A stretch of DNA of 63,753 bases, counting the filler, from Stramenopiles sp. TOSAG23-2 (Eukaryota), in the NCBI GenBank assembly GCA_900128395.1. It is 21 parts of 21 records of this genome, joined end to end, with 100 filler letters (N's around TTAATTAATTAA, not from the genome) between each part and the next. Parts side by side here need not be neighbours in the genome. Positions count along the whole stretch, not along the records: positions 40,899 to 43,929 come from LT651400.1; 20 more parts are not named here. One strand, 5' to 3'. Position 1 is the stretch's first letter; each line of letters starts with the position of its first letter. Below the pieces are notes generated by a model. That model was given only the letters and a program-made list of their open reading frames with translations. It was not told the DNA's origin and ran no database searches. This document shows, in pieces, positions 3,052 through 44,617 of the stretch. The position numbers and the translations under genes were made by a program.

Positions 3052-3151
3052 NNNNNNNNNNNNNNNNNNNNNNNNNNNNNNNNNNNNNNNNNNNNTTAAT
3101 TAATTAANNNNNNNNNNNNNNNNNNNNNNNNNNNNNNNNNNNNNNNNNNNN
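3052..3151. other. Artificial contig spacer (N44-TTAATTAATTAA-N44); also at 6203, 9354, 12504, 15653, 18801, 21948, 25094, 28240, 31384, 34528, 37665, 40799, 43930, 47056, 50178, 53300, 56421, 59537, 62652
   Basis: Identical 100-bp six-frame-stop linker about every 3.15 kb; contig lengths decline along the window. Confidence 0.99.
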
Positions 3152-6196: not shown

Positions 6197-7039
6197 TCGT
6201 AGNNNNNNNNNNNNNNNNNNNNNNNNNNNNNNNNNNNNNNNNNNNNTTAATTAATTAANNNNNNNNNNNNNNNNNNNNNNNNNNNNNNNNNNNNNNNNNN
6301 NNTTTTATTTGTGTTATTCGCGATCCATGCGCTCATATGGGGTTAAAAAAAAATTTTATATATATCATTTATACACACCACATCATGTGATAAAAAAAAA
6401 TATTAAATATTTTATTTTATGATGTGTTGAGTACTAATATTAAAAAATAGAAGAGAGAAAAAAATTTAGATAATTAGAGAATAAAGGAGAGAAGTATAAA
6501 CATTCTTTTGATTAAAAACAGATGTGCCATGTGGAGAGGGAGTTAAAAAATACTACGAAGCATTATTAATGCGCGGGTTTAAAATTCGTACAAAATATAA
6601 TTATTTATTTTTAATAAAAAATATACAAGTTGTAATACAATCTTACAAACACTCTAGCAACTCTACCTGGTCTACATCATCAGTAATATATTTTCGAAAT
6701 TTCCTTAAATTTATTTTTTTAAATTCTTCCACCACTTTTACTTTCGTTTCGGCCCCTATGTTCACCTCCCCATCTCCTCCGCTCGGAAGAACGTTATAAC
6801 AAAAGTTTTATTACGTTGCACGTTATTTGAAGTTATTCAATTCATGAAATAAGTAAAATAAGAGTAAGTAATAATACATATGTACATAATTATATATACA
6901 TTATTATATTAACGTTTAATCTTTTTAATAATCAAACAAAATTCCGGTGTAATAATATTGTACGTACTACATTTATTTATTACTCGTCCTTGATTGGTGT
7001 AACATATTATAGGCACCTAAAAATTTATAAATTTGAAAA

Positions 7040-10679: not shown

Positions 10680-12503
10680 TTATCCTCTAACCCTTTTCAT
10701 CATTTCTTCTTTTGCTTTGAAAAATGCCATTATATCTTCATCTGCATCTTTATTACCAGTCATTAATTTTTTAGCTTCCTGTGGTGGACTATACGATGAT
10801 GTTTTACCTTCACGTTCACTACCTTTCGCAGAATCACCTCTCCATGCATCTTTAACAAATCTACTTTGAGGACTACGTTCATTCATATTATTGGATGCAC
10901 CATTTTCATTATTTTCATGTACTTCCCTCAGCATTACAGAGTGCCATGATTCAAAGTCCGATTGCATTCGTATTCGCTGTCTTTCTAATTGTTTTTGGAT
11001 GCGTTCAATTTCTGATTTTAATTCACGTAATGTGTTAAAATTTTTCTTATAATCAACTTTAAACCTATCCATTTCTTTTTTCATATCGTTTTCAATTTGC
11101 ATGCTTTCTTGAACAGCTTCATCATCATTTTCTTCGTTAAATTGTTGTTGTTCTATCCTTAACTGTTCAATACGTTTTTTAATTTTATTGATATTACCCC
11201 TAGCACCATTCACACGTTTACCCATTGCTTTTGCTTCCATATACCGTTGGCGTAACAAACCTTTGTTTTCCTCAACTGCTTGATTTGAATGGTATGTAGT
11301 ACGAAAAACTTCAAATGCTTTTTTCTTATCTGCTAAAATTTCTGCTGTCACTTTGACTTCATTACGATTACTACGTTTCGACCCTTCGTCATAATTATTT
11401 TGTTGATTGTTATTTTCATTATTATTGCCACTATAAGATGATGAGGATGAGTATGGACGACTATTATTGTTATTACTACTATTATTAGCACCACCATCTG
11501 CTGGTATTGTTTTCCCTTGTTTCACCATATTTACTAAAATAGAAATTTCATTATCCCTATGAGCTAATAATTCTTTTAATTCTGCAATTTCTGCATCTAA
11601 TCGATCAATATCTTCCATATCACTGCTACTACCTGTCTTACTACCATATCCACCGCCTTTTCCTCTTCCACCACCACGTTCAGCTACCATATCTCGTAAT
11701 ATTTTCAATGCCATTTGAATCCGTGGAAAGGTTGGATTGCCACCAAATCCCATTGGTTGATTTGGATCACTTTCTCTCGCATCGAAAAATGTTTGTACTA
11801 AATCTCTTAAACGATCAATTTCATGACCAGCCATTTCTCGTTCATTCTCATCACCTTCCCCTAATTGCCTTTTCAAGAAATTGACTTCTTCTTTCAACGA
11901 TTTCACTTCTGCTTTTAATCGTTGAATCACAGAAGCAGGATCAACTTCTTCATTTACATATGCTTCATTTTGAACTAACGCGACACGCTGTGCGAATCGA
12001 CATGTGGAGATACTTTCCTCCGTTTGTTCTTTTTCAGCACTAATAGTTGCTATCATGGTAGTATGGCAATTACCACCTAAACTATCTCGCAAAAGACTAG
12101 TCATTAACGAATTTCTATATGGCACATGCGTTCGCCCCTTCGTTTTCCTTTCATGCAATGCAACAATGACCATTTCTAAATAATGCAAAGATGTATTGAT
12201 AAATTTTGCTTCACGTAAAATTTGTCCCCTTGCACCAGTTTTATGTGCCCTTTCTGACCCTGCTAAATCAACGATATGTAACTTTGATCTACGAATCACA
12301 TCACTACCTGCTTCACGGGATTCAACACTGATACTAAATACACAATGCGAACGCGAGGATGCCATATTCATCGGAGTTTCACTAATGGCACGATTTGTAT
12401 CACCAAGAAATAATAAATTCAATGCTTCCTCTTCGTTGTTTGCAACGTGCATGGTTAAACCTCTTAAATGCACGATCCCATCGTCATCTTCCATGAAATT
12501 AAC
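10680..12503 (-). CDS. KIF6: Kinesin-9 family motor (KIF6-like), 5'-truncated
   Basis: EALNLLFLGDTNRAISETPMNMASSRSH, VDLAGSER, HVPYRNS, STCRFAQRVA, and the KIF6-like tail TGNKDADEDIMAFFKAK. Confidence 0.92.
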   Translation of the reverse strand, partial: VNFMEDDDGIVHLRGLTMHVANNEEEALNLLFLGDTNRAISETPMNMASSRSHCVFSISVESREAGSDVIRRSKLHIVDLAGSERAHKTGARGQILREAKFINTSLHYLEMVIVALHERKTKGRTHVPYRNSLMTSLLRDSLGGNCHTTMIATISAEKEQTEESISTCRFAQRVALVQNEAYVNEEVDPASVIQRLKAEVKSLKEEVNFLKRQLGEGDENEREMAGHEIDRLRDLVQTFFDARESDPNQPMGFGGNPTFPRIQMALKILRDMVAERGGGRGKGGGYGSKTGSSSDMEDIDRLDAEIAELKELLAHRDNEISILVNMVKQGKTIPADGGANNSSNNNNSRPYSSSSSYSGNNNENNNQQNNYDEGSKRSNRNEVKVTAEILADKKKAFEVFRTTYHSNQAVEENKGLLRQRYMEAKAMGKRVNGARGNINKIKKRIEQLRIEQQQFNEENDDEAVQESMQIENDMKKEMDRFKVDYKKNFNTLRELKSEIERIQKQLERQRIRMQSDFESWHSVMLREVHENNENGASNNMNERSPQSRFVKDAWRGDSAKGSEREGKTSSYSPPQEAKKLMTGNKDADEDIMAFFKAKEEMMKRVRG

Positions 12504-15780: not shown

Positions 15781-17694
15781 ATGGCATCATTAGCATTAAA
15801 TTTTAAGAACAAAAATAATAAATCAACTACTTCACAAAAAAGTAGTACAACTGCTAAGAAGAGGTCATCTGGAACTGGTATACCTCGTAGAAAACTGTCA
15901 TCCGGAAGCACAAGTACAACTACAAGTAGAAATACAAGCAGTATTAATAAATTTAAATTGAAAAAATCAACAAGCAATGGGTCGTCTGGTAATAAATCTA
16001 TCGCTAACAATAGTAATAGAAAACGATTAAAAAAAAGCAATAGCGCTGGACAACCAAGAGAACAAGCGCAAAAAACAGAAGAGAAAAAAGCTGTAGTCTT
16101 TAATATTGACAAGCGTGCAAGGCGAATTAATAACGCACGTATGTTTACAAAAGGTATCAAAGCATTTCGAGGAAAACATCCATTTCAACCAAAAGTTTTA
16201 AAAGAAGAGAAAGAAAATGCTACTGACTTGAGCTTACATCGTGTTTTTGTTAGACCACGACCATTGTTTGAAAATGAAGCAGACCGTGGTGAATTTGACG
16301 CAGTCAGCTGCGTTGAAAATGGAATTTGCGTACATGAAGGAACACAAAAAATGTCATTTCGAAAAGGTGAAGTCAAAGTTTTAAGAAATCACATATTTCA
16401 AAACGTTACACCAGTGACATCAAATGATAATATGTTTGAAAATATAAAATATTTAATTGATCGGGTAAAAGAAGGAAAACATAGTTCTATATTCATGTTT
16501 GGTATGACTGGCAGTGGGAAAACGTATAATACGAATATTATTCATGAACGTGCCCCTATTAATTTTTTTCAAACAAGTGATTGTAATTCAACAATAGCGA
16601 ACAACTCGAGCAATACAACAATATTATCAACAGGAGAAAAAGGTAATAATAATATTAATGATGATGGAAAAGCAAAATCGCCACAAAAGATGATGATGAT
16701 AATCAATGAAGAGCCAACGACATACATAAATGTTGTTGCATATGAATTAGTTGGTAATAAATGTTACGATTTGCTTTCAGAGAAAAAAGGTGAGGTCTTT
16801 TTAAGGGTTGGAAAAGATAAGAATACACATGTATGTGAAAATGTTACGAAAACTGCAACAACAGCAGGTGAATTGCAAGATATTTTGAAGCAAGCATCAT
16901 TAAATCGTGAGACAGATGCTACTGGTGCCAATGCAACTAGTAGTAGATCACACGCCGTATATGAAATACACTATAAAAAAAACGATGGTAAATTATTATT
17001 AATAGATTTAGCAGGAAACGAAGGAAATATTGAAACGATGCATCACACGAAAGAACAAATGCAGCAAGCAGCATTGATTAATCAATCATTGAGCACGCTG
17101 AAAGCATGTTTGAAAAACATTGCCGTTGGTACAAAACATATACCTTTTCGTGAGGCGGCACTGACACGCGTATTGAAAAGTAGTTTAACGTCACCAACGT
17201 GTGCAACAGCAGTACTGGCATGTGTTTCTCCAGCATGTACGCATTTTGAATTGACAATGGGTACAATGAAATCATCAGTGAAATTGCTTGGTGAGGTGAA
17301 GAAACCAATAGTTGAGGAACATGAAATGCATGTGGAAGGCATCAAGAAGGGTGGTCCAAAAAATTGGGATCGACAAGCATTATTGCAATGGTTTCAAAAA
17401 CAAAATTTTGGATGTAAATTAGATGTTCCAGCTGGTATGAATGGGGCAGCTATTATGAAATTGAATTTAATACGATTAAATCAATGCTGTAAAACAAAAA
17501 AAGGACAATTAATTTCAAGGCAAAAGGCACAAGTAATTTTTGATGCATTAAGAGAAGCAGCTAGGAATGCAAGAAAAAAAGACCTGGCTATCAGGCAACG
17601 ATTATTAAATGAAAAAAATAAAGTTATGTCGACTGTTGATTTTGCTAAAAAAGCAAGACGTAATCCAACAGTTGCGTCAGCGTCTAGACGTTAA
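15781..17694 (+). CDS. Divergent kinesin with internal motor and C-terminal SAM-like region
   Basis: RVFVRPRP, P-loop GMTGSGKT, NATSSRSH, DLAGNE, HIPFRE; C-terminal KNWDRQALLQWF...MNGAAIMKL. Confidence 0.9.
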   Translation: MASLALNFKNKNNKSTTSQKSSTTAKKRSSGTGIPRRKLSSGSTSTTTSRNTSSINKFKLKKSTSNGSSGNKSIANNSNRKRLKKSNSAGQPREQAQKTEEKKAVVFNIDKRARRINNARMFTKGIKAFRGKHPFQPKVLKEEKENATDLSLHRVFVRPRPLFENEADRGEFDAVSCVENGICVHEGTQKMSFRKGEVKVLRNHIFQNVTPVTSNDNMFENIKYLIDRVKEGKHSSIFMFGMTGSGKTYNTNIIHERAPINFFQTSDCNSTIANNSSNTTILSTGEKGNNNINDDGKAKSPQKMMMIINEEPTTYINVVAYELVGNKCYDLLSEKKGEVFLRVGKDKNTHVCENVTKTATTAGELQDILKQASLNRETDATGANATSSRSHAVYEIHYKKNDGKLLLIDLAGNEGNIETMHHTKEQMQQAALINQSLSTLKACLKNIAVGTKHIPFREAALTRVLKSSLTSPTCATAVLACVSPACTHFELTMGTMKSSVKLLGEVKKPIVEEHEMHVEGIKKGGPKNWDRQALLQWFQKQNFGCKLDVPAGMNGAAIMKLNLIRLNQCCKTKKGQLISRQKAQVIFDALREAARNARKKDLAIRQRLLNEKNKVMSTVDFAKKARRNPTVASASRR

Positions 17695-40269: not shown

Positions 40270-41434
40270 CAATGCTATTTACACAAGCTTAAATTAGTGA
40301 GGTATTGATGTGTAAAATTGCTAGCTCACTAGCCGGGCTAGAGCTAGCCCAGCTAGCTTGAAGAGCTTGAAGAAATTATTAATAAATTAAGTGATTATTC
40401 TAATTATTAGAATTATAGCTGTATTGACATAGCAAAGGGGCCAAAATCTCGTCACCCGTCAAAATTGGTATTAGCAGGTAGATACCAGGTAGTACAGAAA
40501 GTATGTTATAACTGCCAATTTCCAATTTCTCATAAAGTTCTAGAATCATATAATTGCCCTACACACATCATTTAATTAATTGAATGGATGGATACATAGT
40601 CTATAGATATTTCTTGTTTGGAAACATTTAGAGAACATCCATATTTGTATCCTTTTTCATTCATTTGTTCCTTTATTTATTTACTATTTTTATAATTAAG
40701 ATTGGTATATTAATAGACAATCCATTCATTCATTCATTCGTTTAGGACTAATATATAAGAGTTGGAGAGTCGAGTCGTAGTCGCCTAATAATAGCCGANN
40801 NNNNNNNNNNNNNNNNNNNNNNNNNNNNNNNNNNNNNNNNNNTTAATTAATTAANNNNNNNNNNNNNNNNNNNNNNNNNNNNNNNNNNNNNNNNNNNNTT
40901 AACAAATATAGCAGCACGTTTAAAATATGAGGAAAGGATTCAAATGGTATTGGAGGAAAAGTCAGTGGTGATGACGACATCAGGTGGGGAGTAGAAGGGA
41001 GATTAAAAGTACTTCGTATTAGTATTACTGAGAGAGAGATTAATATGTTTTAATACTGTTTTCATATTTTATATTTTACTCGTACGAATATATACGAAGT
41101 ATTAAATAATATTTCATATGAGTGTGTGTAATATATATACTTCGTACGAAGTATATACGAAGCCGTATATAGTAAAGGAGCTCGCAGCTTCCAATTGGAT
41201 TTCTACTATGATACATGTAGAGATATACAAATCGCGATTATTAAAACTTGCGATTATTAAAACTTGCGCTTATAATAATCGTTTCGTTTTAAAATGTGCA
41301 TTTGGTGAGTCGTATAATGACTTGTACCCTGGTACAATTTATTCTCCGCCTTCCTATGACCATCAGCTATTATGAGTAGTTAATACCATCTATTTACCTT
41401 CATTGGTATTCTCGATTATGAGAATATCAACACA

Positions 41435-41512
41435 TTAGTTTGAGATAGATTATTTCAGTTATTGTATTCTTTTGAAGAGTAGGAATTATCATGAGTAAAT
41501 TAAAACAATAAA
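41435..41512 (+). repeat. Short dispersed repeat (copies at 45300-45375 minus; 20-bp core at 3590-3609)
   Basis: AGAGTAGGAATTATCATGA(GTAAATTAAAA) occurs on three contigs, with extended flanking similarity between 41435-41474 and 45335-45375. Confidence 0.8.
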
Positions 41513-42319
41513 TTACGCGCGTAAACTAAATACTCGTATTATATATATACGAATATCGTATATATACATTTTATATAACTATTATATTATATAATTTTCT
41601 CTTACTCATTACTATTATACGAAGCGTATATATTAAAACGGGATATTTTATAATCATACCGAGTAATCATATCATATATATATGATTATAGTTTGCAGAG
41701 GTGCATTAGAGCTTTACTATAGTACGTACTCGTGGGATTTAGAATATTATTCCTGAGATTGAGTATTGAGCATATTACTTGACACGAGAAGTGTAAAATT
41801 ATTATAACTTAGATTTTAATCATCATATTTATATCATACGAACCATATGATATATATCACATATGATATGCATATGATACGAACACACCATATCCCCTTA
41901 TATGGTGACACCTCGACATGCCATACAACCATATCAAGATGAAACTGCATGCATATGACACACATTGCAGTCATATTTTATGCTGTTAATGACATACATA
42001 TGGTACACGGCATATCTCTATACATAGGTACATGGCGACAAGCCCAAATACATCATCTTGACTTGCAACTGGTGTCCTTTATGCATGCATTTTATTTCAA
42101 TCCCTCCCATACACTGTCATAAACAAGCGAAATGAGATGTAAGTGTTCTTCCAACCAAAGCGACCTAACAAAGGCTCGATGCCATATGCAGTATCTATAG
42201 TAAGACCGCTCAAAGTCACCACGGGATCTTTATCTCTTTCATCTTCGTCTGTACTGGGTTCTTGTAAAAGAATGTAGTTTCACGACAATTTAAACGCGTA
42301 CAAAAACGATTTTAAAACA

Positions 42320-43929
42320 TTATGATTTTTTTTGGTTACAATATAATAAACCGAATAGTAGAAATATTAATGATAATAAAATGACAAACATCATGTTTCT
42401 ACTTGTTCGTTCCATTTTTAACAATGCATACATTTCATTGATTTCATATTGTTGCTTCTCTAATTGAACTTGTTGTTCTTTATTGACTTGAATTAAAAAG
42501 CCTGCTAATGATGAATAATCAACTTTTTTAATACCATCCTTATTTTCACTAACAAGTTGTGGCAATACTTTTTCAATTTCTTGTGCAATAACACCAACTC
42601 GTGTACCATTAGGTAAACCTTCTATTTTTACTGTATGTTTATTATCATCAAACGTATACATAACGCCACGTATATCTTGTAATTTTTCAGAGGCATTTTG
42701 GATGGTTTTAATATTTGTTTTTAACCTTTGGTCTGAAAATAATGGATTATTATCGAAATAATTATCCTCTTCGTCTTCATCGTCTCCGAGGAGGCGTCGA
42801 CGTCGTTGACTCTCTCCAATTTTGATTTCGTTATCAGTAAAACCTAATGTAATTTGATTTAAATTAGATATTGTTGCACACCCCCATGCGGTACCTCCAA
42901 CGTTCATTTTTAGAATCTGATCGCCAGCACAAAGTACCAACTTATCATAATTAATTCTACTACCACCCCACACACCTGCAGTAATGGTACCTGTAACAGC
43001 CAAATCACCGCCAAAATTTACATTCCCAGTATGAACATTTAATGCTGTTTGACCTGCCTGACCTGTTATTTTTACCAGCTCATTAGCATTTTGTGTTGCT
43101 GTATTTGATATTATTAATCCTCCACCTCCTACAGCATTTGGATCAATCGTTACTGCGGCAACTGTAAGCGTGGCTGCAACATTTACATTTCCAGCATCAA
43201 TATTTAATGCTGTTTGACCTGCCTGACCTGTTATTTTTACTAGCTCATTAGCATTTTGTGTTGCTGTATTTGATATTATTAATCCTCCACCTCCTACAGC
43301 ATTTGGATCAATCGTTACTGCGGCAACTGTAAGCGTGGCTGCAACATTTACATTTCCAGCATCAATATTTAATGCTGTTTGACCTGCCTGACCTGTTATT
43401 TTTACTAGCTCATTAGCATTTTGTGTTGCTGTATTTGATATTATTAATCCTCCACCTCCTACAGCATTTGGATCAATCGTTACTCCACCAGCAAAATTGG
43501 AATCCCCGGCTGCAACTTCTAATGCTATTCTTCCTGCTGCACCTGTCATTTTAAGTAATCTACCTGCAGCTAATTGGGTACTGCTACTACTACTTCCAGT
43601 AATATCCAAGATAGTCCCACTTGTTAACCCAGTAGCTGATATTGATACAACTTTACCAGTAGTTACGGCATTTGCAACAACTTGCATTATTCCACCACTT
43701 GTTGCAGTAGATGTACTAGTTAACTTCAATAATGCACCCGATCCCAAGGCAGAACCTGATGAAATTGAAAGTGCAGTACCAGTAGTCAATGCTGTAGCAG
43801 ATATCGTTGCAACATCGCCGGCAGTTACGGTGTTTTCAGAAGCGACAAACTTTCCCACCTTCATCGCATACCCCCCTATATCAATATCTTTACCAACACC
43901 TTCAACAATCGATGCTTTTTGACTTTTAC
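42320..43929 (-). CDS. Fibre-like protein with Peptidase_S74 intramolecular chaperone, coiled coil and C-terminal TM anchor (5'-truncated)
   Basis: Gly/Thr/Ala-rich beta-repeat region with 55-aa repeats; FSDQRLKTNIKTI...LQDIRGVMYTF...GVIAQEIEKVLPQLV...VDYSSLAGFLIQVNKEQQ; TM MMFVILLSLIFLLFGLLYC. Confidence 0.9.
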
Positions 43930-44029: not shown

Positions 44030-44617
44030 AATAATAATATTACTGATGTACAAAGTATTGGTGAAGGATTAAAAACAAACAATAAATTAAAAACCTTGTG
44101 GCTAAAAACCAATAATATTACTGATGTACAAAGTCTTGGGGAAGGATTACAAACCAACAATACAGTAACGAGCTTGTACCTCCATAATAATAATATTACC
44201 GATGTACAAAGTATTGGTGAAGGATTAAAAACGAACCATAAACTAACGACATTGCACCTAGAGAACAATAATATTACCGATGTACACAAGATTGGTGAAG
44301 CATTAAAACCAAACAATACATTAAAAACATTGTGGCTCAAAAATAATAATATTACCGATGTACAAAGTATTGGTGAAGGATTAAAAACCAACAATACATT
44401 AACGTTCTTGGCCCTAGGTGATAATAATATTACTGATGGTGGTGGAATACGAAGTATTATTGATGCATTAAAAACAAATAATACATTAAGATGGTTGTGG
44501 CTGTCTAACAATCAACTTAGTGATAATATGAAATCACGAATAAAAGCTATAGAACAATATAAAAAAAATGGATCAAACGGGTACCAACAAGTGCAAGGAA
44601 TGTCGATATTCGTATAA
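44030..44617 (+). CDS. Ribonuclease-inhibitor/NLRC3-type 28-aa leucine-rich repeat protein, C-terminal part
   Basis: Repeats of LxLxxNNITDVQSIGEGLKTNNTL; frame open to contig edge. Confidence 0.92.
   Translation, partial: NNNITDVQSIGEGLKTNNKLKTLWLKTNNITDVQSLGEGLQTNNTVTSLYLHNNNITDVQSIGEGLKTNHKLTTLHLENNNITDVHKIGEALKPNNTLKTLWLKNNNITDVQSIGEGLKTNNTLTFLALGDNNITDGGGIRSIIDALKTNNTLRWLWLSNNQLSDNMKSRIKAIEQYKKNGSNGYQQVQGMSIFV

What the first reader, a model, noticed from the sequence alone, without database searches (positions are those of the whole stretch)
42320..43929. Eukaryotic membrane-tethered 'tail-fibre' with a self-cleaving S74 chaperone
Seen: a Gly/Thr/Ala beta-repeat fibre (55-aa units), then RRRRLL plus an acidic linker, then S-D-Q-R-L-K (Ser codon at 42736), a full S74-like domain, a coiled coil, one TM helix and a 5-aa tail. 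AT-rich codon usage matches the host genes. Established: Peptidase_S74/ICA domains trimerise phage tailspikes and cut themselves off through a Ser-Lys dyad. The best-known eukaryotic use is MYRF/MrfA, which releases a transcription factor from a TM anchor. Inference: this protist uses the same device to fold and release a trimeric beta-fibre (adhesin, prey-capture, hair or extrusome component) from the secretory membrane. The extra polybasic site just upstream suggests a second, convertase-type cut.
Basis: partly seen in the sequence, partly recalled or inferred. Interest (0 to 1): 0.85.

Follow-up and report, generated by a model that had tools for sequence, protein, structure and literature searches.

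The report
Membrane-tethered self-cleaving protist fibre protein
This is the tail end of a very long gene, most likely from a marine single-celled eukaryote, for a phage-tail-fibre-like protein that appears to be folded as a trimer while tied to a membrane and then to cut itself loose, a use of this phage device outside viruses that I did not find described.

Summary
The minus-strand ORF 42320-43929 encodes three 55-aa Gly/Thr/Ala units, RRRRLL, an acidic linker, Peptidase_S74 (Pfam E 2e-15; Ser398 codon at 42736, Lys403), a helix, one TM helix and a 5-aa tail.

Three corrections:
- The window is 21 small contigs joined by artificial linkers. The gene sits alone on a 3,031-bp contig, so the "host genes" are not linked to it.
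- The ORF is only the 3' end of a longer gene. Its first residues belong to an ~83-aa tandem repeat seen at least 12 times in relatives.
- The "coiled coil" is the last helix of the S74 domain, modelled as running straight into the TM helix.

About 18 metagenome or transcript relatives share RR(R)L, a linker, S74 and a C-terminal TM helix. Their S74 domains form one clade (95/85). None of 236 S74 ORFs from viral, metagenome and prokaryote loci has the RRL or the TM helix. The one apparently full-length relative starts with a signal peptide.

A trimer model scores 0.86 against 0.00 for controls, but this may be memory of solved structures. Codon usage fits the bin, and polyA RNA libraries hold the gene.

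Best reading (0.55): a type I membrane-tethered precursor of a secreted or surface trimeric fibre. Main rival (0.25): a viral or endogenous-viral fibre gene. It is not MYRF.

The parts
40899..43929 (.). The true contig that carries the gene (3,031 bp). It is bounded on both sides by artificial N44-TTAATTAATTAA-N44 linkers.
   Evidence: N runs and linkers; 21 pieces.
42320..43929 (-). Open reading frame, open at its 5' end. It has 535 codons read from 43927, and the stop is at 42320-42322. It is the 3' end of a longer gene.
   Evidence: The 5' continuation is seen as loose ends of RNA contigs beyond 43926.
43874..43927 (-). Last part (SQKASIVEGVG.DIDIG) of an ~83-aa tandem repeat unit. Relatives hold at least 12 such units.
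   Evidence: Summed depth is higher in this bin in X1: 146 against 22-48 in most coding bins.
42938..43861 (-). Gly/Thr/Ala/Val-rich region (residues 23-330). It aligns with phage tail-fibre profiles.
   Evidence: Composition A47 G45 T42 of 308 residues. phrog_5668 'tail fiber protein' E 1.5e-23 over residues 44-498.
43012..43484 (-). Tandem array of 165-nt (55-aa) units, 2.9 copies, 98% matches.
42812..42937 (-). Small tip module (residues 331-372) with a Cys333...Trp348-x-Cys350 beta-hairpin.
   Evidence: Trp348 is invariant in 8 of 8 sequences. The same Cys pair is present in P0004, P0005, P0222, P0225 and P0229. Strands 337-341 and 348-352 appear in the model.
42791..42805 (-). RRRRL (residues 375-379), a family-invariant R-R-L. 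Candidate site for a second, dibasic-type cut.
   Evidence: R377, R378 and L379 are invariant. 18 of 18 family sequences have the motif. 0 of 78 prokaryote S74 ORFs and 0 of 100 non-family representatives have it.
42737..42790 (-). Acidic linker (residues 380-397), variable in length and sequence across the family, modelled as disordered.
   Evidence: linkers of 8-21 aa. pLDDT is below 50.
42407..42736 (-). S74 / intramolecular chaperone autocleavage domain (residues 398-507). The Ser398 codon is 42734-42736 and the Lys403 codon is 42719-42721.
   Evidence: Pfam PF13884 E 2e-15. PDB sequence hits 6f45 at 1.1e-12 and 7dc3 at 4.5e-5. pLDDT 88-98. Fold hits 7dc3, 3gw6, 3gud and 4uw8.
42338..42394 (-). 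Single transmembrane helix (residues 512-530). In the models it continues the last ICA helix without a break.
   Evidence: Kyte-Doolittle 2.74. One helix spans residues 471-534. Heptad-spaced trimer contacts run from 478 to 532.
42323..42337 (-). Five-residue tail, NQKKS.
41985..42319 (-). Likely 3' untranslated region, at least 335 nt.
   Evidence: One contig of a polyA metatranscriptome (X2, record 13) spans 41985-42412 with 4 differences.
40899..41984 (.). ORF-poor, AT-rich flank. The part at about 41100-41920 has very high summed depth in DNA and RNA runs, so it is repetitive or low-complexity sequence.
   Evidence: No Rfam match.

Best explanation
The ORF is the membrane-proximal end of a very long repeat-protein gene. 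It most likely belongs to the AT-rich marine eukaryote whose contigs fill the window. That organism looks stramenopile-like: the nearest named relatives of one of its other genes are oomycetes.

The protein is a type I membrane precursor of a trimeric, phage-tail-fibre-like fibre.

Shown here:
- The domain order: 83-aa repeats, Gly/Thr/Ala region, Cys hairpin, RR(R)L, linker, S74/ICA with a Ser398-Lys403 dyad, helix, TM, 5-aa tail.
- Conservation of that cassette in about 18 relatives.
- An ICA fold.
- A confident in-silico trimer whose central coiled coil runs on into the TM helices.

Inferred mechanism:
1. A signal peptide, seen only in relative P0224, takes the chain into the ER.
2. Three chains are brought into register at the lumenal face by the TM, coiled-coil and ICA trimer.
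3. The fibre folds from its C-terminal end outwards.
4. Ser398, activated by Lys403, cuts the chain and frees the fibre from the anchored chaperone.
5. A dibasic-specific protease of the late secretory pathway then trims the floppy linker at RRRR.
6. The free trimer is secreted or built into a surface structure. Its job (cell coat, flagellar or body hair, adhesion to prey or substrate) is not known.
For: - S74 match, dyad and fold.
- Family signature: of the 117 sequences in which my pattern found the S74 motif (153 examined), 17 have RR+L upstream, and 15 of those 17 have a hydrophobic segment after S74. Of the other 100, none has RRL and one (P0272) has hydrophobic segments after S74. By eye, 18 of 18 family sequences have R{2,5}L.
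- Absence elsewhere: 0 of 158 S74 ORFs in 159 viral and metagenome loci and 0 of 78 in 74 prokaryote loci have a TM helix after S74.
- One origin: the 14 family S74 domains are one side of a branch, support 95/85, in 94% of 200 bootstrap trees.
- Topology: P0224 (883 aa) starts MRIAIIILCAAS..., with a 9-aa hydrophobic core of 3.3. A conserved Cys pair in the window's subfamily fits a lumenal location.
- Trimer: ipSAE 0.86 (three runs: 0.85, 0.86, 0.86) against a best control of 0.00. Runs share at least 85% of contacts, and partner pLDDT is at least 76. That mark was reached by 20 of 30 proteins solved as pairs of one chain and by 1 of 23 solved as single chains.
- Eukaryotic origin:
  - RSCU r = 0.948 against the bin.
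  - 1.4 kb without ORFs downstream of the gene.
  - Contigs of a polyA metatranscriptome cover the coding sequence with 0 differences and run 335 nt past the stop.
  - Other window contigs carry kinesins including KIF9, VPS11, ESCO and myotubularin. The nearest named myotubularins are oomycete proteins at about 40% identity.
  - No family member was found in IMG/VR.
Against: - The gene is alone on a 3,031-bp contig. Linkage to the eukaryotic genes is by binning only.
- The contig's tetranucleotide profile fits the rest of the window least well among the 20 full-size contigs: r = 0.863 against 0.873-0.938.
- The window gene's own N-terminus is missing. The signal peptide comes from one relative, P0224, in the sister subclade. 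P0224 is 24% identical overall and 48% identical over the 109-residue S74 match.
- RNA-library contigs do not prove transcription (caveat).
- The trimer pass may be memory of solved ICA trimers (3gw6, 7dc3) and used three copies, unlike the calibration.
- No cleavage, localisation or function was measured.
Confidence: 0.55

Rival explanations
1. It is a virus fibre gene, either co-assembled with the host or lying in an endogenous element. Candidates are a giant virus, a polinton-like virus or a virophage of the protist. The fibre would be folded on a host or virus-factory membrane, cut loose and mounted on the particle.
For: - Polinton-like viruses of most protist groups carry large modular fibre proteins ending in Peptidase_S74 (PMC12220804, passages read).
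- A giant virus of the stramenopile Heterosigma has an S74 protein of 1,529 aa (preprint 10.64898/2026.02.06.704369, passages).
- Giant-virus genomic islands are enriched in S74 adhesins (PMC13620141, passages).
- The layout (conserved repeats, then a variable tip, then a chaperone) is that of a virus fibre.
- The contig has no linked cellular gene and the weakest tetranucleotide fit of the full-size contigs.
- Viral mRNAs of such viruses can also appear in polyA libraries (my own knowledge, not from a call).
Against: - No IMG/VR contig encodes a family member. The best 80 of 564 relatives match mainly the S74 part (three reach further upstream, to residues 215-366) at 50% identity or less. 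Scans with P0365 and P0224 found none.
- No TM helix follows S74 in 158 viral and metagenome S74 ORFs.
- The PLV paper says S74 genes were not found in ochrophyte PLVs. It does not use the word 'transmembrane' at all.
- 1.4 kb of ORF-free flank is unlike compact viral genomes.
- Codon usage is the best fit to the bin of all 19 ORFs tested.
Confidence: 0.25
2. It is a cellular surface adhesin that stays anchored. The S74 module would serve mainly as a membrane-bound trimerisation base, and the fibre would be released, if at all, only by the RR(R)L protease site.
For: - The ICA helix runs unbroken into the TM helix, and the trimer contacts continue through it. This would make a rigid membrane stalk.
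- RR(R)L is as conserved as the dyad.
Against: - Ser398 and Lys403 and their neighbours are strictly kept in 8 of 8 family sequences. That is hard to explain if no cut is made.
Confidence: 0.12
3. It is a contaminant: a tail-fibre gene of an AT-rich marine bacterium or its phage, wrongly binned with the eukaryote.
For: - The nearest S74 domains by sequence are chromosomal genes of Bacteroidota, such as Flavobacterium sp., at 50% identity over residues 397-499.
- PHROG tail-fibre profiles match.
Against: - 0 of 78 prokaryote S74 ORFs have RRL or a TM helix.
- Close relatives come from polyA or oligo-dT RNA libraries. They also carry the source label 'merc', which I take from recall to be a marine eukaryote transcript catalogue.
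- 1.4 kb of the flank has no ORF.
- Codon usage matches the eukaryotic ORFs.
Confidence: 0.04
4. It is an ordinary MYRF/MrfA-type membrane-bound transcription factor.
For: - S74 followed by a TM helix is the MYRF layout. The best structural match of the model is the MyRF ICA domain (7dc3, E 1e-4, target TM-score 0.60).
Against: - No DNA-binding domain in the 397 residues before the Ser, nor in the full-length relative P0224.
- P0224 has a signal peptide.
- The tail after the TM helix is 5 aa.
- By sequence the domain is nearer the phage type: 6f45 at 1.1e-12 against 7dc3 at 4.5e-5.
Confidence: 0.02

Closest known systems
MYRF (animals) and MrfA (Dictyostelium): membrane-bound transcription factors released by an S74/ICA domain
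   Same: A eukaryotic protein in which an S74/ICA domain with a Ser-Lys dyad sits just before a single TM helix. Trimerisation is coupled to self-cleavage from the membrane (PMC3828593, abstract; PMC8326128 and PMC3742443, search listing only). The best fold match is 7dc3.
   Different: - Opposite side of the membrane, by inference: a signal peptide in P0224 and a Cys pair.
- The cargo is a long tail-fibre-like repeat protein, not an NDT80-type DNA-binding domain.
- The tail is 5 aa rather than a large C-terminal domain.
- There is an extra invariant RR(R)L site.
- By sequence the domain is closer to the phage and bacterial type.
Phage tail fibres and spikes with a C-terminal intramolecular chaperone. 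PDB entries named by the tools: 6f45 long tail fiber distal subunit, 3gw6 intramolecular chaperone, 4uw8 T5 L-shaped tail fibre, 3gud neck appendage protein.
   Same: - A fibre-like region followed by S74, with the same dyad and fold.
- PHROG tail-fibre profiles align over residues 44-498.
   Different: The phage proteins end 80-140 residues after the Ser with no TM helix. They have no RR(R)L-plus-linker module. They are made in the cytoplasm (my own knowledge).
Fibre and adhesin proteins with S74 of polinton-like viruses and giant viruses of protists
   Same: Large modular repeat proteins ending in S74, found in or beside protist genomes.
   Different: In the passages I read, those papers report no TM anchor, RR(R)L site or signal peptide. 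I could not see their supplementary tables. No family member was found in IMG/VR.
Bacterial surface proteins with S74. In Bacteroidota, S74 is followed by a type IX secretion sorting domain. Earlier notes of this scan also describe S74 followed by a TM helix in a phage and in a Micavibrio-like bacterium.
   Same: Cellular, exported fibre-like proteins in which S74 is followed by a module that holds the chain at a membrane or secretion machine. Examples are P0237, P0286, P0322 and P0309, which carry Por_Secre_tail, and notes e1-6107284 and e1-4826636 (unchecked).
   Different: A different holding module or a different domain of life. No RR(R)L. The window's family forms its own clade.

Membership tests
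Peptidase_S74 / intramolecular chaperone autocleavage (ICA) domain, PF13884 | Profile match above the curated threshold | tested here: met
   E 2e-15, 57.2 bits against a cut-off of 22. PDB profile hits 6f45 at 1.1e-12 and 7dc3 at 4.5e-5.
Peptidase_S74 / intramolecular chaperone autocleavage (ICA) domain, PF13884 | Catalytic Ser and Lys five residues apart (S-D-x-R-x-K) | tested here: met
   Ser398 and Lys403 are identical in 8 of 8 family rows. In 57 rows, Lys403 is invariant and Ser398 is at least 90% conserved.
Peptidase_S74 / intramolecular chaperone autocleavage (ICA) domain, PF13884 | ICA fold | tested here: met
   Model pLDDT 88-98 over the domain. Foldseek hits: 7dc3 E 1e-4 (target TM-score 0.60), 3gw6 0.011, 3gud 0.042, 4uw8 0.17.
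Peptidase_S74 / intramolecular chaperone autocleavage (ICA) domain, PF13884 | Homotrimer | tested here: inconclusive
   In-silico only: ipSAE 0.86 against 0.00 for the best of 3 controls. The mark was reached by 20 of 30 proteins solved as pairs of one chain and 1 of 23 solved as single chains. The pass may be from memory of solved ICA trimers.
Peptidase_S74 / intramolecular chaperone autocleavage (ICA) domain, PF13884 | Autoproteolysis at the Ser | not testable with these tools
   Needs expression of wild type against Ser398Ala and Lys403Ala.
MYRF / MrfA | NDT80-type DNA-binding domain N-terminal of the ICA domain | tested here: not met
   No such Pfam match in the 397 visible residues or in the full-length relative P0224, P0005 or P0365. 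The window gene's far 5' part is missing.
MYRF / MrfA | TM helix after the ICA domain | tested here: met
   Residues 512-530.
MYRF / MrfA | No signal peptide, so the released part faces the cytosol | tested here: not met
   P0224 has a signal-peptide-like start. There is a Cys pair in the window's tip. The window gene's own start is unknown.
Virus (phage, PLV, giant-virus) S74 fibre | Fibre-like region upstream of a C-terminal S74 | tested here: met
   phrog_5668 E 1.5e-23 over residues 44-498.
Virus (phage, PLV, giant-virus) S74 fibre | Protein ends with the chaperone (no membrane anchor) | tested here: not met
   TM helix plus tail in the window protein. 0 of 158 viral and metagenome S74 ORFs have a TM helix.
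Virus (phage, PLV, giant-virus) S74 fibre | Encoded in a virus genome or integrated element | tested here: inconclusive
   The contig holds only this gene and 1.4 kb of non-coding flank.
Substrates of dibasic (Kex2/furin-type) proprotein convertases | Exposed multi-basic site in a lumenal, disordered stretch | tested here: met
   R{2,5}L in 18 of 18 family sequences. The stretch is modelled with pLDDT below 50. The lumenal side is inferred from P0224.
Substrates of dibasic (Kex2/furin-type) proprotein convertases | Actual cleavage by such a protease, and presence of one in the organism | not testable with these tools
   No genome is held for the window.

The most novel reading that the evidence does not exclude
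A lineage of marine heterotrophic flagellates has domesticated a bacterial or phage tail-fibre cassette. It makes giant trimeric fibres in its own secretory pathway, folding them on a membrane-anchored, self-removing S74 chaperone and swapping the tips. At least two tip types share one RR(R)L-linker-S74-TM cassette. The fibres would be used as surface hairs or as lectin-like devices to recognise and catch bacterial prey. That would put a phage's host-recognition tool to work in a predator of bacteria.
Probability: 0.2. Interest if true: 0.85.

Novelty: new variant of a known kind. Interest (0 to 1): 0.62.

Why it matters
Self-cleaving S74 chaperones are known from two settings. One is virus fibres, made in the cytoplasm. 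The other is a single eukaryotic use, MYRF/MrfA, which releases a transcription factor on the cytosolic side.

This family would be a second, independent eukaryotic use, on the other side of the membrane. The membrane anchor would act as a two-dimensional assembly platform for a secreted fibre, with a conserved second processing site.

If the genes are cellular, they give a concrete and testable candidate for how uncultured marine grazers build long surface fibres and perhaps recognise prey. If they turn out to be viral, they would show that protist viruses fold their fibres on membranes. I did not find that described either.

Full-text searches for 'Peptidase_S74' with 'eukaryot', for 'chaperone of endosialidase', and for combinations of intramolecular chaperone, S74, protist, stramenopile and tail fiber turned up no description of such a family.

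Tried and rejected
- The whole genome of the window is not held, so paralogues could not be counted. Within the window there is no second S74 or 83-aa repeat copy.
It therefore gave no genomic context for close relatives.
- In one search my ORF picker took the wrong, downstream ORF in 5 of 15 loci. I replaced it with the pattern scan.
- ESM Atlas gave only phage S74 clusters at scores of 0.90 or less, and no useful taxa.
- The Pfam and PHROG 'hits' of the 83-aa repeat protein P0365 have no single stretch that passes on its own. I treat them as repeat-summed noise.
- A single-sequence fold of residues 1-330 gave pLDDT 39, so it says nothing.
- The first full-length structure job failed.
- Rfam found nothing on the contig. 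Repeats in the flank are only short AT-rich ones.
- PEXEL or RxLR-type reading of RR(R)L: the residues after the Leu are not conserved, so I kept it only as a remote alternative to a dibasic cut.
- Read laying:
  - Bins 43041-43244 are without cover in all four runs. These are repeat units, so this is not a finding.
  - The joint 43569 to 43763 in X2, with 19 other letters between, is an in-frame length variant, not an intron.
- The stramenopile single-cell genomics paper PMC5778133 holds none of the terms endosialidase, tail fib, S74 or adhesion.
Full report
**What is in the sequence**

On the minus strand an ORF runs from 43929 to a stop at 42320-42322. It is open at its 5' end, where the sequence runs into N. 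Residues below are numbered from the codon at 43927 (protein P0001, 535 aa). The parts are:

- Residues 1-18, SQKASIVEGVGKDIDIG.
- Residues 23-330, rich in Ala, Gly and Thr (A47, G45, T42 of 308). This region holds a 165-nt (55-aa) tandem array of 2.9 copies at 98% identity, at 43012-43484.
- Residues 331-372, with Cys333 and Trp348-x-Cys350.
- RRRRLL at 375-380.
- A linker in which 8 of 18 residues are acidic.
- S-D-Q-R-L-K at 398-403.
- Peptidase_S74: Pfam E 2e-15, 57.2 bits against a cut-off of 22.
- A helix, a hydrophobic helix at 512-530 (Kyte-Doolittle 2.74) and the tail NQKKS.

**Three corrections to the setting**

First, the window is not one piece of genome. It is 21 contigs of about 3.0 kb, sorted by length and joined by N44-TTAATTAATTAA-N44 linkers.
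- The gene's true contig is 40899-43929.
- The kinesins (including KIF9), VPS11, ESCO, myotubularin, P450 and other genes of the window show that the bin is a flagellated eukaryote. They are not linked to this gene.
- For the myotubularin, the nearest named relatives are oomycetes at about 40% identity. Unnamed EukProt entries are closer, at 57%.
- I therefore call the bin stramenopile-like.

Second, the ORF is only the 3' end of a longer gene.
- Its first residues belong to an ~83-aa unit that is repeated at least 12 times in two relatives. P0365 is 992 aa and open at both ends. P0366 is 838 aa.
- RNA contigs that overlap 43875-43929 run on beyond 43926. The 30 letters printed continue the frame with the same repeat sequence as relative P0002.
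- So the contig broke inside a repeat array.

Third, the 'coiled coil' is the last helix of the S74 domain. It aligns with the solved phage domain 6f45. In the model it is one helix from residue 471 to 534, running straight into the TM segment.

**A family with one cassette**

A word-based search gave 98 hits. The seven best (P0002-P0008, 40-56% identical over 25-38% of the query) share more than S74.

A profile of these eight sequences, run against 1.84 billion representatives, found 89,250 proteins at E up to 0.001 but only 52 at E up to 1e-30.

I examined 153 sequences with a pattern for the S74 motif, and it found the motif in 117:
- 17 have RR+L within 45 residues upstream.
- 15 of those 17 have a hydrophobic segment after S74. 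The other two are truncated fragments.
- Of the remaining 100, none has RRL, and one (P0272, a YadA-head protein) has hydrophobic segments after S74.

Read by eye, 18 of 18 family sequences have R{2,5}L 8-21 residues before the Ser, followed by a variable linker rich in Ser, Thr, Asp and Glu.

Upstream of RRL there are at least two kinds of tip:
- A Cys-x(14-17)-Cys hairpin, as in the window protein.
- A small 'IKN.D...MLVYDG..WE.LSTP' module.

So one RR(R)L-linker-S74-helix-TM cassette is combined with different tips.

In a careful tree of 104 S74 domains, the 14 family rows lie on one side of a branch. Support is 95/85, and the grouping appears in 94% of 200 bootstrap trees. The 90 non-family rows were drawn at random from the 149 distinct non-family sequences (of 163 in all) in which the pattern found the motif and the domain was long enough. 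The alignment has only 100 columns.

**Where the cassette is not found**

- The best 80 of 564 IMG/VR relatives and the best 80 of 568 metagenome relatives match mainly the S74 part (query residues about 397-500, at most 50% identity). Three IMG/VR loci reach further upstream, to residues 215, 345 and 366.
- In those 159 loci my pattern found 158 S74 ORFs. None has a hydrophobic segment after S74, and all end 80-140 residues after the Ser.
- In prokaryote genomes the nearest domains are almost all from Bacteroidota (Flavobacterium sp., 50% over residues 397-499). Of 78 S74 motifs in 74 loci, none has a TM helix or RRL.

**Fold and assembly**

The model of residues 296-535, built with 55 aligned rows, has mean pLDDT 77.5, with 88-98 over the S74 part and the long helix. 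The stretch around RRRRLL and the linker is below 50.

Foldseek's best PDB matches are all intramolecular chaperone domains:
- MyRF ICA 7dc3: E 1e-4, target TM-score 0.60.
- 3gw6: E 0.011.
- 3gud: E 0.042.
- 4uw8: E 0.17.

By sequence the domain is nearer the phage type (6f45, 1.1e-12) than MYRF (7dc3, 4.5e-5).

Three copies of residues 296-535 are predicted to form a trimer:
- ipSAE is 0.86 (runs 0.85, 0.86, 0.86) against 0.00 for the best of three controls.
- The runs share at least 85% of contacts, and partner pLDDT is at least 76.
- The mark was reached by 20 of 30 proteins solved as pairs of one chain and by 1 of 23 solved as single chains.
- Contacts are heptad-spaced from residue 478 to 532, a three-helix coiled coil that continues through the membrane segment. 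They also cover residues 296-353.
- Because ICA trimers are solved, the pass may reflect memory. It shows likeness, not binding. The job also used three copies and my own alignment, unlike the calibration.

**Which side of the membrane**

The window gene's start is missing. Of the 16 family representatives whose starts I examined, only P0224 (883 aa) looks full-length. It begins MRIAIIILCAASVRTLVDG, with a 9-residue hydrophobic core of 3.3. The other 15 start inside repeats or domains, with values of 0.56-1.67.

P0224 belongs to the sister subclade. It is 24% identical overall and 48% identical over the 109-residue S74 match.

Together with the conserved Cys pair of the window's own subfamily, this points to a type I protein whose fibre part is lumenal or extracellular. 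That is the opposite of MYRF. It is an inference for the window gene.

**Cellular or viral?**

For a cellular gene:
- Synonymous codon usage correlates with the pool of the other 18 long ORFs at 0.948, the highest of all 19. GC3 is 0.181.
- 1.4 kb downstream has no ORF of note.
- In a polyA metatranscriptome (X2), contigs match the coding sequence with 0 differences (43263-43457 and 43488-43644). One contig runs from the last 93 coding bases 335 nt past the stop. The distal flank has no cover.
- An oligo-dT RNA run (X6) and an independent seawater DNA run (X3) hold near-identical pieces.
- No IMG/VR relative of the repeats or of P0224 was found.

Against:
- The contig stands alone.
- Its tetranucleotide profile is the least typical of the 20 full-size contigs, 0.863 against 0.873-0.938.
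- RNA-library contigs do not prove transcription.
- Protist viruses are known to carry S74 fibres. The sources are passages read in PMC12220804 (polinton-like viruses), preprint 10.64898/2026.02.06.704369 (a Heterosigma giant virus) and PMC13620141 (giant-virus islands).
- None of those passages mentions a membrane anchor. The first paper does not contain the word 'transmembrane'. I could not see their supplements.

I put the cellular reading at about 0.55-0.7 (the range depends on whether the anchored-adhesin variant is counted as cellular) and the viral one at 0.25.

**Mechanism**

Shown: domain order, conservation, fold, predicted trimer.

Inferred:
1. Entry into the ER.
2. Registration of three chains by the TM, coiled-coil and ICA trimer.
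3. Folding of the fibre from its C-terminal end.
4. Attack by Ser398 with Lys403 as base, as established for phage CIMCDs and for MrfA. [quoted passage not shown]
5. Release of the fibre.
6. Trimming at the invariant RR(R)L by a dibasic-specific protease.

The function of the released fibre is unknown. Surface hairs, coat or adhesion to prey are guesses.

**Comparison and novelty**

- It works like MYRF/MrfA, with a membrane tether released by S74, but it is not a member. It has no DNA-binding domain, the inferred topology is opposite, and the tail is 5 aa.
- It is built like a virus fibre, but it carries an anchor and a second processing site that the virus and prokaryote S74 proteins examined here lack.
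- Earlier notes of this scan report S74 followed by a TM helix in a phage and in a Micavibrio-like bacterium (e1-6107284 and e1-4826636, unchecked). The bare idea of S74 plus an anchor may therefore not be unique to this family.
- My literature searches found no description of a eukaryotic secretory S74 fibre family.

I rate it a new variant of a known kind, with interest 0.62.

Noticed in passing
whole window; linkers at 3096-3107, 6247-6258 ... 62696-62707: The window is a pseudo-scaffold of 21 contigs, 3,051 bp down to 3,015 bp plus a last piece of 1,002 bp, sorted by length. They are joined by N44-TTAATTAATTAA-N44, a linker with stops in all six frames. Any 'synteny' read across these joints is artificial.
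   Followed up: yes
window 41100-41920: The AT-rich flank downstream of the gene has enormous summed depth. It reaches 2e5 in X1 and 6e4 in a seawater metagenome, and it is also present in RNA runs. More than a thousand contigs match at 90% or better. It is repetitive or low-complexity sequence of unknown nature, with no Rfam match.
   Followed up: partly
window 43569-43763: A polyA-RNA contig (X2) replaces 193 nt of the Gly/Thr/Ala region with 19 other letters. That is a net in-frame loss of 174 nt (58 codons). It is a shorter allele or paralogue of the fibre, not an intron.
   Followed up: no
window 43857-43929 and beyond: Loose ends of RNA contigs beyond 43926 differ between runs X2 and X6. 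Together with the raised depth in this bin, this suggests several paralogues or repeat variants that share the 83-aa unit.
   Followed up: partly
proteins P0237, P0286, P0322, P0309, P0240, P0228, P0234: Some bacterial representatives carry two S74 domains in one protein. Others carry S74 followed by a type IX secretion C-terminal sorting domain (Por_Secre_tail). Both point to cellular, exported uses of the chaperone in Bacteroidota.
   Followed up: no
window 44030-44617 (next contig, + strand): An array of 78-nt (26-aa) leucine-rich repeats (NNITD...) starts right at a contig end. TRF gives 5.2 copies at 79% matches. It is another gene broken by assembly in a repeat.
   Followed up: no
window 10680-12494 and 15781-17694: Two kinesin genes lie on separate contigs, one with a KIF9 domain. 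They indicate that the organism has a flagellum.
   Followed up: no
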